Below, piece after piece: positions 1-37,038 of a stretch of DNA of 37,038 bases. Below the pieces are notes generated by a model. That model did no database searches. It was given only the letters and a program-made list of their open reading frames with translations, and was not told the DNA's origin. Within the stretch, counting starts at the first letter, position 1, and every line of letters starts with the position of its first letter. Origin of the DNA: a virus; IMG/VR virus record IMGVR_UViG_3300045988_084091, positions 1-37,038 of that record; one strand, 5' to 3'. Both the position numbers and the translations under genes were made by a program.

Positions 1-103
1 CGAGGAATGGAGGATGTACTTACGGCGCGAGATCGAGCGGCTGCTGATCCTAGCGGACACGCGGACGATGGAGATGACGCTGGAATTTCTGCGCGCAGCG
101 TAA
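1..103 (+). CDS. 3' part of the 36-aa ORF; redundant copy of 36912-37022 created by the terminal repeat
   Basis: Same frame and same stop (taa at 101-103) as 36912-37022. Not an independent gene. Confidence 0.6.
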   Translation, partial: EEWRMYLRREIERLLILADTRTMEMTLEFLRAA

Positions 104-119
104 AGAAAAACAAAAAAGC
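1..119. repeat. Left copy of the 119-bp terminal direct repeat
   Basis: cgaggaatggaggatgtactt...taaagaaaaacaaaaaagc is repeated exactly at 36920-37038. Confidence 0.95.
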
Positions 120-30497: not shown

Positions 30498-30587
30498 GGC
30501 ATCCTCCGTAAATGCAGAAACGGAGCCAACTGCATTCCGCAGCCAGCTCCGTTCAGCTCTTATGCCCGGCCGTTTCCGGGCACGTCG

Positions 30588-30734: not shown

Positions 30735-31526
30735 TCACATTGCAGCCCCGGCGTTTTTCCGCCACCCGTCAAGGTAAATGACAGGCGCGGCCTTGCTTGC
30801 CGGTTGATAGCCCATCCGCACACCGTAGCCGCCGCCGTAGTCCAGCGCCGCCGCGGTGTTAACAAACAATCGTTCAACCGGCTCCGCGCTCCTCGTAGAA
30901 GCGTTCGCCCGGAAGAAACAGTCCTTAAACACGGCAGGGGAGTGCGTGTGCCCGCAAACATAAACGTCTGCGTCAACAATCTGCGCATAGTCCGCAAGCC
31001 GGTTGATCTTGCCGCCAATCTTGCGCCCGCCACCGTTGCCGTGGTTGACGTAGATGGAATACGTCGTTTGCCGTCCCTCGCTCTTTCGCCGGGAGTTTTC
31101 ACCGAGTGATACGAATACGAGCGCTGCGTCCGGAGCGTACCGGTCGCCCGCGCCCAGCTCGTTTGCGATCAGCCATGTAATGTCGATGCCGTCTGCACGA
31201 TATGTCCGCTCTTCGTGGTTGCCGGGAACAGCGCACAGGATGCGGCCCTTGAGCGGGGCGAACGTCTTGTTTGCAAGCTGGATCTGCTCCATCGGGGACA
31301 ACTGCGTGCTGTAGATATCTCCGATGCTGTTTCGCGTCGCATTGTCGATCAGGTCGCCCGCAAGAATTGCATAGGCGTTATCCTTTGCCGCAATGTCCGC
31401 CACGCGCTTTTGCACGCCGCGAATATCGCAGTTCGGGTCGGAAAGATGTACGTCCGCAATGACGTGCACTTCGATTTCGTTTTGCTGCTTCGGCAGCTCC
31501 ACACGGATAACGTGCAAACGCTTCAC
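30735..31526 (-). CDS. Calcineurin-like metallophosphoesterase, 263 aa (GTG start)
   Basis: All signature blocks are present: DVHLSD, GDLID, GNHE, VNHGNGGG, GHTHSP. An in-frame stop 3 codons upstream fixes the start at GTG 31526. Confidence 0.8.
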   Translation of the reverse strand: MKRLHVIRVELPKQQNEIEVHVIADVHLSDPNCDIRGVQKRVADIAAKDNAYAILAGDLIDNATRNSIGDIYSTQLSPMEQIQLANKTFAPLKGRILCAVPGNHEERTYRADGIDITWLIANELGAGDRYAPDAALVFVSLGENSRRKSEGRQTTYSIYVNHGNGGGRKIGGKINRLADYAQIVDADVYVCGHTHSPAVFKDCFFRANASTRSAEPVERLFVNTAAALDYGGGYGVRMGYQPASKAAPVIYLDGWRKNAGAAM

Positions 31527-31739
31527 CTCATTCGTTCAAGACCACCGCTGCGAGCGCTCTTGCACAGCGCCCCAGCAAAAAAACGAAATAATCTACCAGA
31601 CACGGTTGTCGCGCGCATAGCTTATAAACCAATTCCGAGCAGCAGCTCAGCGCGCCCGCCTCCCGCTGCAGCAGGAAAGCGGCTTTCTGCCGGTTTTTCA
31701 CGCTCCGGTCAATCCGGTCGTCTGGTCTTGGCGGCAGCC

Positions 31740-31756
31740 CCCGGACTTGCACCGGG
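31740..31756 (-). other. Hairpin B with heptaloop UGCAAGU (minus strand)
   Basis: Plus strand cccgg-acttgca-ccggg. Nested inside a second helix, cggcagc/gctgccg. Confidence 0.6.
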
Positions 31757-31797
31757 CGCCCCTCTTGGAAAGCTGCCGTAGAAAGGGAAGCTGCGGC

Positions 31798-31816
31798 ATC
31801 CTGACTTGCACAGGAT
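31798..31816 (-). other. Hairpin A with the same heptaloop UGCAAGU (minus strand)
   Basis: Plus strand atcctg-acttgca-caggat. The stem sequence differs from hairpin B, while the loop plus closing pair (GUGCAAGUC) is identical. Confidence 0.6.
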
Positions 31817-32171
31817 TTCAGCGGAAAGGAGATGAAAGCGCTTAGGCCACTCGCCGCCGCAGCAGTGTTTACCGTCGCTTCCGACGCTTGATTCCCGGAT
31901 AGTGCCGGGTTCACGGTTGCTCCGTACCGTAATAGGTTTTTGCAAGGGAATAACAGGTGCAGTTGGGAAATCACTGATACACCGTCAACGGAAAATTTGT
32001 TGCTTCGAGTGTGGAAGAGATTGAAAGTTTCTGCTCTCAAGAACAGCTTCCGATTGACGCGAGGTTGACCTTTTTCCGGTACGGAGGGGCATCGTTCACA
32101 AACGTGAACAGCAAGCACTCAGCCGCAGCGCGTATCCCGCGCCCGCATTCGGCTTGTTGGATTAAGCATGT

Positions 32172-32581: not shown

Positions 32582-32590
32582 AGTATAGCA
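32582..32590 (-). promoter_or_regulatory. Extended -10 element (TGcTATACT) upstream of terS
   Basis: The minus strand reads tgatgcTATACTataagtgatggggtgattctATG. The -35 is poor (ttagtt), and the phage sigma factor may use a different element. Confidence 0.4.
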
Positions 32591-32668: not shown

Positions 32669-32710
32669 GTTGAACTTGCGTTGAACGTGCGCTGAACTTG
32701 CGTTGAACAT
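32669..32710. repeat. Four tandem 11-bp units (GTTGAACTTGC type), 110-150 bp upstream of terS
   Basis: gttgaacttgc gttgaacgtgc gctgaacttgc gttgaacat. The units share the ACTTGC core with the two hairpin loops downstream of terS. Confidence 0.8.
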
Positions 32711-32800
32711 CTAGCGGGACGATGTTTGGCGGGAAGTCTCAAAAGGCTGTGTGTCGTAACGCATGGGCCGTCGCCTGAGAGCCGCCCCGTTTTTCCGGCA

Positions 32801-32824
32801 CCCCGGGGGGAGGGGGGGGAGGGG
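32801..32824. repeat. Homopolymer cluster CCCC-G6-A-G8-A-G4
   Basis: ccccggggggaggggggggagggg. G-quadruplex-capable and prone to slippage. Lies in ORF-free DNA. Confidence 0.9.
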
Positions 32825-36915: not shown

Positions 36916-37022
36916 CAGACGAGGAATGGAGGATGTACTTACGGCGCGAGATCGAGCGGCTGCTGATCCTAGCGGACACGCGGACGATGGAGATGACGCT
37001 GGAATTTCTGCGCGCAGCGTAA
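36912..37022 (+). CDS. Small ORF, 36 aa, translationally coupled (ATGA) to the Cro-like gene
   Basis: MTDEEWRMYLRREIERLLILADTRTMEMTLEFLRAA. The ORF spans the repeat boundary, which shows the two window ends are continuous. Confidence 0.55.
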   Translation: MTDEEWRMYLRREIERLLILADTRTMEMTLEFLRAA

Positions 37023-37038
37023 AGAAAAACAAAAAAGC
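36920..37038. repeat. Right copy of the 119-bp terminal direct repeat
   Basis: Base-for-base identical to 1-119. It runs to the window edge, so the true repeat length cannot be bounded from the sequence. Confidence 0.95.

What the first reader, a model, noticed from the sequence alone, without database searches (positions are those of the whole stretch)
31527..32171. 645-bp non-coding, highly structured spacer between terS and the rest of the packaging operon, with two covarying hairpins sharing one loop
Genes in this operon are otherwise separated by 0-60 bp. Here 645 bp contain only one ORF, which has a GTG start, A/T-ending codons unlike its neighbours, and a Cys/Leu/Ser-rich product.

On the transcribed (minus) strand I see the following:
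- Hairpin A is AUCCUG-UGCAAGU-CAGGAU (31816-31798). Hairpin B is CCCGG-UGCAAGU-CCGGG (31756-31740). Their loop starts are 59 nt apart, the stems differ, and the 9-nt segment GUGCAAGUC is identical. That is the signature of a conserved recognition loop.
- Hairpin B is nested in a second helix (CGGCAGC/GCUGCCG).
- A perfect 9-bp long-range complement (32085-32077 with 31929-31921) would close a domain of about 150 nt.
- Further local hairpins lie at 32094-32109 and 32128-32142.

The loop core ACTTGC (plus strand) also occurs in the 11-bp tandem units upstream of terS (32669-32710). The same hexamer therefore flanks terS on both sides.

Two hypotheses fit:
- a bipartite pac / TerS-recognition region;
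- a large structured RNA embedded in the late transcript, as phages of Firmicutes are known to carry (for example ROOL/GOLLD-type RNAs). I cannot assign a family by eye.
Basis: partly seen in the sequence, partly recalled or inferred. Interest (0 to 1): 0.72.

Follow-up and report, generated by a model that had tools for sequence, protein, structure and literature searches.

The report
Conserved non-coding core in phage spacer
Between two DNA-packaging genes of a human-gut phage lies a patchwork non-coding stretch whose 137-base centre is almost unchanged in every relative; it probably folds as an RNA carrying two tRNA-style hairpin loops, matches no catalogued RNA family, and has no known function.

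Summary
The hairpins are real and far beyond chance: no shuffle out of 20,000 gives two hairpins that share a 7-nt loop. The "645-bp structured spacer", however, is a mosaic.

Across 55 related loci (41 distinct spacers, 327-838 nt) every segment is optional except one 137-nt core, D1 (window 31913-31777, minus strand), which contains hairpin A. D1 has nucleotide diversity 0.013, against 0.11-0.15 at four-fold sites of the flanking genes (Fisher p 2e-17). Indels exclude a conserved ORF.

Hairpin B belongs to an optional 49-nt module, D2: a 7-bp helix, then a 5-bp stem with a 7-nt loop, then N-CCA. The first five bases of both loops (UGCAA) never vary, whereas positions 6-7 do, as in a T-loop. 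The hairpin B sequence equals the P4 hairpin consensus of the twister-sister ribozyme.

No Rfam family matches, so it is not ROOL or GOLLD. ARAGORN's default run calls no tRNA. No homologue was found outside this one gut-phage lineage.

An RNA on the sense strand is favoured (strand-specific fold signal, G·U-preserving variants, compensatory changes in flanking helices). D1 itself shows no covariation, so a DNA site such as pac remains possible. The claimed hexamer link to the repeats upstream of terS is not supported. This is a candidate new RNA motif of moderate interest.

The parts
31777..31913 (-). D1: the invariant 137-nt non-coding core, the only segment present in all 55 related loci. 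Predicted fold: two 5' hairpins, then a four-way junction.
   Evidence: Present at 96-100% identity in 41 of 41 distinct spacers. 20 of 137 sites segregate, pi 0.013, against 106 of 173 and pi 0.114-0.154 at four-fold sites of terS and the phosphoesterase gene; Fisher p 2e-17. A 1-nt indel polymorphism (C/T/-) lies inside it. The 160-nt fold with its 5' flank gives z -1.82 on the sense strand and +0.14 on the antisense strand.
31798..31816 (-). Hairpin A: AUCCUG-UGCAAGU-CAGGAU. A T-loop-type 7-nt loop on a 6-bp stem, abutting the 3' strand of the junction helix.
   Evidence: Coordinates. Identical in 41 of 41 distinct spacers. Local match to the hairpin B model, 12.3 bits.
31790..31863 (-). 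Predicted four-way junction of D1. It is closed by GCUGCGGC (31863-31856) paired with GCCGCAGC (31797-31790). Its arms are GGC-GAGUG-GCC (31855-31845), AGCG-[15-nt CU-rich loop]-CGCU (31842-31820) and hairpin A.
   Evidence: The MFE and centroid structures are identical and RNAalifold agrees. There is no covariation because the pairs never vary. Two single variants (L003, L023) break the closing helix.
31824..31838 (-). 15-nt pyrimidine-rich loop CUUUCAUCUCCUUUC, resembling an anti-Shine-Dalgarno sequence. UUCAUCUC (31836-31829) is complementary to GAGGUGAA at the ribosome-binding site of the phosphoesterase gene (31529-31522).
   Evidence: Read from the sequence. The loop is nearly invariant; variants are the first-base indel (C/T/-), one recurrent C-to-U change that would keep the pairing as G·U, and two single-sequence changes. 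The pairing itself is inferred, not tested.
31729..31777 (-). D2: an optional 49-nt minihelix-like module. A 7-bp helix (GGCAGCU with GGCUGCC), a 14-17-nt linker, hairpin B (31756-31740, CCCGG-UGCAAGU-CCGGG), then N-CCA (31732-31729).
   Evidence: Absent in L015, L016, L021 and L189. UGCAA is invariant while loop positions 6-7 vary (GU, GC, CU). CCA is kept in 37 of 38 and the preceding base is G, A or U. Helix variants are C-to-U changes giving G·U in two lineages and one mismatch. The covariance model R1 finds it once in the window, at 78.6 bits. The hairpin matches the twister-sister P4 consensus CCgGUGCAAGCCcGG.
32061..32171 (-). S1: an optional 5' module holding hairpins at 32142-32128 and 32109-32094, a second copy of GCUGCGGC (32129-32122), and the 5' strand of the long-range helix (32085-32077).
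   Evidence: Missing in L007 and L207, partly deleted in others. Compensatory A-U to G-C change in the 32109-32094 hairpin. Long-range helix 340 of 355 cells paired, with 2 compensatory pairs.
31955..32060 (-). S2: a rare insertion found only in this window and in L011 and L013.
   Evidence: In L011 and L013 it is split by an array of 15-nt tandem repeats.
31914..31954 (-). S3: a variable linker holding the 3' strand of the long-range helix (31929-31921). That strand can alternatively pair locally, or with 31606-31602.
   Evidence: The alternative closing helix shows a U-A to U-G to C-G series.
31600..31727 (-). D3: an optional, replaceable 3' module. A diverged version, D3alt, takes its place in L003, L008, L012, L193 and L201.
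   Evidence: One C-G to A-U compensatory change in helix 31682-31674 with 31664-31656. D3 and D3alt do not fold alike.
31530..31599 (-). S4: an optional 3' insertion with a third hairpin, GCGCU-GUGCAAG-AGCGC (31570-31554).
   Evidence: Present in about 10 loci. Hairpin. Its loop register differs from hairpins A and B.
31515..31529 (-). Ribosome-binding site GAGGUG (31529-31524) and the probable true TTG start (31517-31515) of the metallophosphoesterase gene. This is the 3' limit of the non-coding gap.
   Evidence: At least 90% of 25 homologues have Met aligned to residue 4 of the annotated ORF. Coordinates.

Best explanation
The spacer is a small cargo island for non-coding RNA inside the late (packaging/structural) operon of a temperate or prophage-forming human-gut Clostridia phage.

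Its one obligatory part is D1 (31913-31777, minus strand). It is transcribed as part of the late mRNA and folds into two 5' hairpins plus a four-way junction. One arm of that junction is a T-loop hairpin stacked on the closing helix. An optional neighbour, D2, repeats the design as a tRNA-like minihelix: a 7-bp helix, a 5-bp T-type arm, then N-CCA.

I infer that these modules act at the RNA level as tRNA mimics or T-loop docking modules. The most likely role is as recognition and processing signals, for RNase P/Z-type enzymes or a T-loop-binding partner. Such processing would separate the terS cistron from the downstream phosphoesterase-terL message, or release a stable small RNA. The CU-rich loop of D1 may in addition pair with Shine-Dalgarno sequences.

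Shown: strong constraint, no coding capacity, modularity, strand-biased folding, and the loop variation pattern.
Inferred: transcription, the fold of D1, the T-loop geometry, and the processing function.
For: - Constraint. D1 has pi 0.013 and 20 of 137 segregating sites, against pi 0.114-0.154 and 106 of 173 at four-fold sites of the flanking genes; Fisher p 2e-17. It is present in 55 of 55 loci while all other segments are optional.
- Not coding. There are indels inside D1, a stop-free stretch of 67-199 aa among relatives, and no gene called there in L111.
- Strand. The fold z-score is -1.82 on the sense strand (7 of 200 shuffles reach it; MFE equals centroid) and +0.14 on the antisense strand. 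Variants in flanking helices are mostly G·U-preserving on the sense strand, for example G·U in 22 of 41 at one pair of the long-range helix.
- Covariation outside D1. 7 pairs carry changes on both sides; no shuffle out of 500 reaches the observed covariation score (1 of 500 reaches the count of such pairs). The long-range helix has 2 compensatory pairs.
- Loops. None of 20,000 shuffles gives two hairpins with one shared loop. UGCAA is invariant while positions 6-7 vary. This fits the T-loop pentaloop, with U1 and A5 forming the closing pair (PMC4810234).
- The same hairpin is the conserved P4 hairpin of a known structured RNA, the twister-sister ribozyme (PMC7373991).
- D2 keeps N-CCA in 37 of 38 while the N varies.
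- Context. The same operon carries gut-2 RNA, and relatives insert a skipping-rope RNA into this very spacer.
Against: - D1's helices never vary, so there is no covariation for or against its fold.
- Two single variants break the closing helix.
- The thermodynamic signal is modest for D1 and absent for the whole spacer.
- Equal invariance of stems, loops and linkers is also what a protein-bound DNA site would show.
- No Rfam tRNA or tmRNA hit. ARAGORN's default run finds nothing, and its relaxed hits on D1 and D2 are no more frequent than elsewhere in the window: 26 in 37 kb.
- The distance from D1 to the downstream ribosome-binding site ranges from about 10 to about 320 nt. That argues against a finely tuned cis-regulatory leader.
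- There are no expression data.
- The element is confined to one phage lineage of about 95% identity.
Confidence: 0.5

Rival explanations
1. D1, with or without the other UGCAAG-bearing inverted repeats, is a DNA site: the pac / TerS-recognition region or another protein-binding site of the packaging module. The inverted repeats would be protein half-sites or extruded hairpins.
For: D1 sits immediately downstream of the putative terS in all 55 loci. Primary sequence is invariant in stems, loops and linkers alike. The 8-mer GCTGCGGC or its complement occurs three times in the spacer. GCWGC density is 15.5 per kb in the spacer against 6.9 per kb in the window. TGCAAG-type motifs also occur in DNA repeats upstream of terS and, in relatives, in a CTTGCAAG palindrome just after the terS stop codon.
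Against: The fold signal is specific to one strand. G·U-preserving variants would be A·C mismatches in DNA or on the other strand. Loop positions 6-7 of hairpin B vary and so destroy the GCAAGT hexamer, whereas UGCAA is kept. The hexamers occur at chance frequency in the window. The upstream array changes sequence and copy number among phages with 97-98% identical TerS. The terS assignment is itself weak. In prophage-bearing long contigs the region is contiguous, so it is not attP.
Confidence: 0.25
2. D1 or D2 is a divergent self-cleaving ribozyme related to twister-sister, cutting the late transcript between terS and the downstream genes.
For: Hairpin B matches the twister-sister P4 hairpin consensus at 14 of 15 positions, exactly in the UGCAAGC variants of relatives. 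It also resembles CCCG-UGCAAGC-CGGG of the crystallised ribozyme (PMC7373991). D1 is a predicted four-way junction, as some twister-sister ribozymes are. My own knowledge: small ribozymes are common in phage-like contexts.
Against: Only 15 of 81 model positions align: 12.6 bits against a gathering score of 34, E 5.7 in a 226-nt search. The order of arms differs, since the UGCAAGU hairpin is the last arm and not the middle one. No P1/internal-loop counterpart was found.
Confidence: 0.07
3. D1 has no function of its own. It is a recombination linker or a recently swept or selfish sequence. Its low diversity would reflect homogenisation by the frequent recombination that shuffles the neighbouring modules.
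For: The spacer is an extreme mosaic with many independent indel and replacement events around D1. The element is absent from all phages whose phosphoesterase is only 40-52% identical. Those have upstream gaps of 80-200 nt.
Against: A ten-fold deficit of polymorphism confined to 137 nt, with diversity rising immediately on both sides (0.05-0.09), needs selection on D1 itself. The non-random hairpin and loop design is not explained.
Confidence: 0.12
4. The spacer is a decayed or unrecognised protein-coding gene (the 196-aa GTG ORF or a small ORF).
For: A 196-aa stop-free frame exists in this window.
Against: No Pfam or PHROG hit. The frame is broken by 1-2-nt indels and large indels in close relatives. 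Gene callers call nothing there. Long stop-free stretches occur on both strands (up to 199 aa sense, 165 aa antisense), as expected for G+C-rich DNA.
Confidence: 0.03

Closest known systems
tRNA-like structures and minihelices (tRNA acceptor/T-arm half, tmRNA tRNA-like domain, mascRNA-type RNase P/Z substrates, bacterial Y-RNA tRNA-like domains)
   Same: D2 has a 7-bp helix directly continued by a 5-bp stem with a 7-nt loop whose first five bases fit the T-loop (U1...A5), followed by a variable base and CCA. D1 is a four-way junction whose last arm is such a hairpin, abutting the 3' strand of the closing helix.
   Different: No D-arm or anticodon arm in D2. The second base of both T-type loops is G, where tRNAs have pseudouridine 55 (my own knowledge). 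In D1 the stacked helices are 6 + 8 bp, not 5 + 7, there is no CCA, and the 'anticodon' loop has 14-15 nt. ARAGORN (default) and the Rfam tRNA and tmRNA models do not match.
Twister-sister self-cleaving ribozyme (Rfam RF02681), P4 hairpin
   Same: The hairpin sequence CC(C)GG-UGCAAG(U/C)-CCGG(G) is that of the conserved P4 hairpin. D1 is a multi-helix junction.
   Different: Nothing else aligns. The arm order differs and no cleavage-site loop was recognised. The score is far below the gathering threshold.
ROOL and GOLLD large RNAs of Firmicutes and their phages
   Same: Non-coding, phage-borne, found among other RNA genes, function unknown.
   Different: No Rfam match. The constant part is 137-190 nt, not 500-800 nt. 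The element lies in the late operon between packaging genes, not next to tRNA genes, and occurs in a single lineage.
gut-2 and skipping-rope RNA motifs (Weinberg et al. 2017, PMC5737381)
   Same: Orphan structured-RNA motifs from gut or phage sequence. gut-2 lies about 1.2 kb downstream in the same operon. Skipping-rope is inserted into this same spacer in relatives.
   Different: No sequence or model similarity. Those are 48- and 80-nt motifs with broad distribution and covariation support.
Phage pac/cos recognition regions (SPP1 pacL/pacR, P22 pac, lambda cosB; from my own knowledge)
   Same: A nucleotide-conserved non-coding region next to terS, containing repeated short motifs.
   Different: Known sites lie within or upstream of terS and are arrays of protein sites in duplex DNA. 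Here the shared motif sits in loops of hairpins with different stems, with strand-specific and G·U features.
Operon-internal processive-antitermination RNAs (Bacillus EAR; HK022 put; from my own knowledge)
   Same: A structured RNA in an intergenic gap early in a very long operon, acting in cis on the transcript.
   Different: No Rfam epsC/EAR match. No evidence for terminators that would need to be overridden.

Membership tests
Any Rfam 15 family (4227 models, including ROOL, GOLLD, tRNA, tmRNA, cobalamin, phage pRNA, EAR) | Covariance-model score at or above the family's gathering threshold | tested here: not met
   Whole window at gathering thresholds: only gut-2, at 30586-30539. Spacer at E up to 10: only chance-level hits of 8-17 bits.
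ROOL / GOLLD | A large conserved RNA of more than 500 nt | tested here: not met
   Only 137 nt are constant. Spacer length is 327-838 nt with optional modules.
tRNA / tRNA-like structure | Recognised as a tRNA or tmRNA by ARAGORN or the Rfam models | tested here: not met
   ARAGORN default: 0 genes. Relaxed (-ps80) hits cover D1 (31864-31790) and 31819-31733 (hairpin A through D2), but 26 such hits occur across the window. No Rfam tRNA or tmRNA hit.
tRNA / tRNA-like structure | T-arm (5-bp stem, 7-nt loop with U1...A5) stacked on a 7-bp acceptor helix, followed by N-CCA | tested here: met
   Met for D2 only: 31777-31729. UGCAA is invariant and CCA is kept in 37 of 38. D1 has 6 + 8 bp and no CCA.
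tRNA / tRNA-like structure | Processing by RNase P/Z, CCA addition or aminoacylation | not testable with these tools
   Needs enzymatic assays or end-mapping.
Twister-sister ribozyme | Conserved P4 hairpin | tested here: met
   Model positions 32-46 match 31755-31741, 12.6 bits. Same hairpin as in the PDB 5T5A construct (PMC7373991).
Twister-sister ribozyme | Full architecture (P1, internal loop with cleavage site, P2-P5) scoring at least 34 bits | tested here: not met
   Only 15 of 81 model positions align.
Twister-sister ribozyme | Self-cleavage | not testable with these tools
   Needs an in-vitro transcription and cleavage assay.
pac / TerS-recognition site | Conserved non-coding DNA adjacent to terS | tested here: met
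   D1 lies 0-500 nt downstream of the putative terS in 55 of 55 loci. The terS call itself is weak.
pac / TerS-recognition site | Repeated recognition motif shared by sites on both sides of terS | tested here: inconclusive
   The hexamers occur at chance frequency in the window. The upstream array is hypervariable. GCTGCGGC or its complement occurs three times in the spacer.
pac / TerS-recognition site | Packaging series initiates there; TerS binds it | not testable with these tools
   The assembly is circular (119-bp terminal repeat). Contig ends cluster at a poly-C/G tract around 32800, which is likely an assembly effect.
Protein-coding gene | Reading frame conserved among relatives, or family hits | tested here: not met
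Riboswitch / cis-regulatory leader | Fixed relation of the aptamer to an expression platform or ribosome-binding site | tested here: not met
   The distance from D1 to the ribosome-binding site varies from about 10 to about 320 nt. No terminator follows.

The most novel reading that the evidence does not exclude
D1 and D2 are a previously undescribed class of phage tRNA-mimic RNA. They would be T-loop-bearing modules embedded in the late polycistronic mRNA and recognised by the host tRNA machinery (RNase P/Z, CCA-adding enzyme) or by tRNA-binding factors. They would either punctuate the packaging operon by a bacterial 'tRNA punctuation' mechanism, or be released as stable decoy RNAs that act on tRNA-directed host functions.
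Probability: 0.2. Interest if true: 0.7.

Novelty: new member of a known kind. Interest (0 to 1): 0.45.

Why it matters
If D1 and D2 are functional RNAs, they add a new motif to the short list of orphan structured RNAs carried by gut phages. Unusually, this one sits inside the packaging operon and has tRNA-like design features that suggest a concrete, testable mechanism: processing by tRNA enzymes.

The locus also shows that one intergenic gap can act as a swap-in, swap-out site for several unrelated RNA motifs. In relatives it holds D2, D3 or D3alt, skipping-rope RNA and tandem mini-hairpins. That is useful for finding further phage RNAs.

Practically, the element is restricted to one lineage with little sequence diversity. 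Comparative proof of structure is therefore out of reach for now, and its wider importance is uncertain.

Tried and rejected
- Rfam at gathering and permissive thresholds: nothing in the spacer.
- GenBank phages, blastn in distant mode: no match.
- Homologue hunt through the flanking proteins in IMG/VR, GTDB genomes and metagenomes. It found only one tight lineage plus phages whose phosphoesterase is 40-52% identical. Those lack the spacer and give no nhmmer or covariance-model hit.
- Proteins of apparently intermediate identity (P0005, P0010) turned out to be the same lineage with assembly gaps.
- Degenerate DNA scans of IMG/VR for diverged copies. The only other hit with both 9-mers in loops of hairpins with stems of 5 bp or more was L282, a single contig with a twin hairpin and a different context. 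Weaker cases (L250, L306, L320) were tandem repeats or poor stems; the remaining hits had no hairpin around both loops.
- The idea that D3 and D3alt are structural homologues: their folds differ, so I dropped it.
- A cobalamin-riboswitch resemblance (GGUGnAAnUCC...GCUGCC, recalled from memory): no Rfam support, so I dropped it.
- Relaxed ARAGORN hits on D1 and D2: not above background.
- attP: rejected, because the region is contiguous in prophage-bearing contigs of 94-123 kb.
- Contig-end clustering as a clue to genome termini: the ends fall at a homopolymer tract, so this is probably an assembly effect.
- Supplementary tables of the IMG/VR structured-RNA catalogue (PMC10690425) are not held. 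I could not check whether the element is already listed there.
Full report
**Context**

The window is a complete circular phage assembly with a 119-bp terminal repeat. The late operon runs on the minus strand in this order:
- a putative terS (32561-32172; only a weak GP3_package hit and no PHROG hit);
- the spacer;
- a metallophosphoesterase (Pfam Metallophos 9e-10; phrog_7339). Its probable true start is TTG at 31517, after the ribosome-binding site GAGGUG;
- a 45-aa ORF;
- an Rfam gut-2 RNA (30586-30539, 48.6 bits);
- terL, then the portal gene.

A conserved extended -10 promoter lies just upstream of terS. The spacer is therefore about 0.4-1.0 kb into the late transcript.

All hairpins and complements are at the stated coordinates.

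The key feature is not chance. The spacer contains exactly three hairpins with at least 5 Watson-Crick pairs and a 7-nt loop. All three carry UGCAAG, and two have the identical loop UGCAAGU on different stems. None of 20,000 dinucleotide shuffles gave two hairpins with one shared loop.

Other parts of the description do not hold:
- The 645 nt as a whole does not fold better than shuffles or than a coding control (z -1.22, -1.71 and -1.46).
- The hexamers said to link the loops to the 11-bp repeats occur at chance frequency in the window.

**Relatives**

I searched through the flanking proteins in IMG/VR, GTDB genomes and metagenomes. This gave 55 loci of one human-gut phage lineage (flanking proteins 96-99% identical) with 41 distinct spacers of 327-838 nt.

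Phages whose phosphoesterase is only 40-52% identical have upstream gaps of 80-200 nt. They give no nhmmer or covariance-model hit. Four degenerate DNA scans of IMG/VR found no diverged copy. The element is specific to this lineage.

**Anatomy**

Mapping the modules shows a mosaic. S1, S2, S3, D2, D3 (or a diverged D3alt) and S4 are each absent, truncated or replaced in some loci. Five loci carry an insertion with an Rfam skipping-rope RNA (69 bits in L012) plus a small ORF. Two carry 15-nt tandem repeats.

Only D1 (31913-31777), which contains hairpin A, is present in all loci, at 96-100% identity.

**Constraint**

- Diversity at four-fold degenerate sites of terS, the phosphoesterase gene and terL is 0.11-0.16.
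- D1 has pi 0.013 and 20 of 137 segregating sites, against 106 of 173 at four-fold sites (Fisher p 2e-17). That is as low as non-synonymous sites.
- Diversity rises at once in S3 (0.09) and D2 (0.05).
- D1 contains a C/T/- indel polymorphism. The longest stop-free stretch varies from 67 to 199 aa among relatives. Gene callers call nothing there.

D1 is therefore a selected, non-coding element.

**RNA or DNA?**

D1 with its 5' flank (160 nt) folds into one well-defined structure on the sense strand. The MFE equals the centroid, and z is -1.82 with 7 of 200 shuffles reaching it. The antisense strand gives z +0.14.

The predicted fold has two 5' hairpins and a four-way junction closed by GCUGCGGC paired with GCCGCAGC. 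Its arms are GGC-GAGUG-GCC, AGCG-[15-nt CU-rich loop]-CGCU, and hairpin A.

Because D1 hardly varies, its pairs give no covariation evidence, and two single variants break the closing helix.

Outside D1 there is support for pairing:
It shows U-A to C-G and A-U to G-C double changes, and frequent G·U variants.
- The 32109-32094 hairpin has an A-U to G-C change.
- On the 18-sequence core alignment, 7 pairs carry changes on both sides, and 0 of 500 shuffles reach the covariation score. The caveat is that the structure was derived from the same alignment.

G·U-preserving variants argue for the sense RNA, since they would be A·C mismatches in DNA or on the other strand.

**The loops**

Across the distinct spacers, the hairpin A loop is UGCAAGU in 41 of 41. 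In hairpin B the first five bases, UGCAA, never change, while positions 6-7 are GU, GC or CU.

This is the pattern of a T-loop: a pentaloop closed by a U1·A5 pair, followed by two variable bases (PMC4810234). It also counts against GCAAGT being a shared recognition hexamer.

The hairpin B sequence equals the conserved P4 hairpin of the twister-sister ribozyme (PMC7373991). Nothing else of that ribozyme aligns.

D2 as a whole reads as a minihelix: a 7-bp helix, then a 5-bp stem with a 7-nt loop, then a variable base and CCA, which is kept in 37 of 38. A covariance model of D2 finds it once in the window, finds hairpin A only as a local match, and finds nothing in 525 kb of diverged phage loci.

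ARAGORN's default run calls no tRNA. Its relaxed hits on D1 and D2 are no more frequent than elsewhere in the window. I therefore describe D1 and D2 as tRNA-like in design, not as members of that family.

**Mechanism**

Most likely (about 0.5), D1 and D2 are sense-strand RNA modules of the late transcript that use T-loop hairpins stacked on helices. I infer a tRNA-mimic role: recognition and processing by tRNA enzymes or a T-loop-binding partner, separating the terS cistron from the downstream message or releasing a stable RNA.

The CU-rich loop of D1 (CUUUCAUCUCCUUUC) resembles an anti-Shine-Dalgarno sequence. It is complementary over 8 nt to the ribosome-binding site of the phosphoesterase gene. 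The spacing between D1 and that site varies from about 10 to about 320 nt, however, which argues against a tuned cis switch.

Rivals:
- A DNA site such as pac (0.25). It is favoured by the uniform invariance of D1 and its position next to terS. It is disfavoured by the strand and G·U evidence.
- A divergent ribozyme (0.07).
- Homogenisation by recombination without function (0.12).
- A decayed gene (0.03).

**Novelty**

No catalogued family matches. An IMG/VR-wide catalogue of candidate phage RNAs exists (PMC10690425), but its tables were not available to check.

I rate this a new member of a known kind, namely orphan phage structured-RNA motifs. Interest is moderate: the constraint and design are striking, but the element is confined to one lineage and its fold and function are unproven.

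Noticed in passing
window 30539-30586 (minus strand): An Rfam gut-2 RNA motif (48.6 bits, gathering score 39.8) lies 41 nt upstream of the terL start. It fills the only other sizeable gap of the operon. It is conserved in relatives (L003, L012, L013).
   Followed up: partly
L012:660-740 (also L020, L198, L201, L210): In some near-identical phages the same spacer carries, right after terS, an insertion of about 315 nt with an Rfam skipping-rope RNA (69 bits) and a small ORF of about 55 aa. The gap thus acts as a swap site for RNA cargo.
   Followed up: partly
window 32669-32708, with relatives aligned: The 11-bp tandem array (GTTGAACTTGC, 3.6 copies) upstream of the late promoter is hypervariable among relatives. 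It ranges from 1 to about 9 copies, with different unit sequences and sometimes unrelated repeats. The roughly 95 nt next to the promoter are conserved.
   Followed up: partly
window 32582-32590 (minus strand): A conserved extended -10 element, TGcTATACT, lies about 20 nt upstream of the terS ATG, with no good -35 element. It is a likely activator-dependent late promoter with a very short 5' leader.
   Followed up: no
window 32800-32824: A poly-C/G tract (GGGGGGAGG, 2.2 copies). At least five metagenomic contigs of relatives end within 32789-32823. This is probably an assembly break rather than a genome terminus.
   Followed up: partly
window 1-119 and 36920-37038: A 119-bp exact terminal direct repeat. 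The window is a circularised complete phage assembly.
   Followed up: yes
window 31515-31526: The annotated GTG start of the metallophosphoesterase is probably wrong. At least 90% of 25 homologues align their Met to residue 4, a TTG at 31517 that lies 6 nt after GAGGUG.
   Followed up: yes
L011:2468-2700 approx. and L013 (insertion within S2): An array of 15-nt tandem repeats (TCCGGAGACGGTTTT, about 6 copies in L011). Each unit is a tiny CCG-GAGA-CGG hairpin followed by a U run. The array is inserted into the spacer of two relatives.
   Followed up: no
L282, minus strand about 400-520 (IMGVR_UViG_3300035128_000027): An unrelated A+T-rich phage has two identical hairpins, UAAGG-UGCAAGU-CCUUA, 49 nt apart. 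They are enclosed by the helix AUAGGUAG with CUACCUAU, and the second hairpin abuts the 3' strand, as in D1 and D2. The element lies upstream of a holin-like ORF. It has no Rfam hit and no relatives in IMG/VR.
   Followed up: partly
L110 (GCA_963627135.1, contig CAVFZY010000023.1): A MAG contig carries a phosphoesterase gene whose 3' two-thirds are 92% identical to the window. It sits in a different neighbourhood (integrase, RHH and DUF1492 genes) without terS or the spacer. This is evidence of recombination within the gene.
   Followed up: no
window 32122-32129, 31856-31863 and 31790-31797: The 8-mer GCUGCGGC occurs twice (in S1 and D1) and its complement GCCGCAGC once. GCWGC is 2-6 times denser in D1-D3 than in the window as a whole. 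The two identical 5' strands could compete for the one 3' strand.
   Followed up: partly
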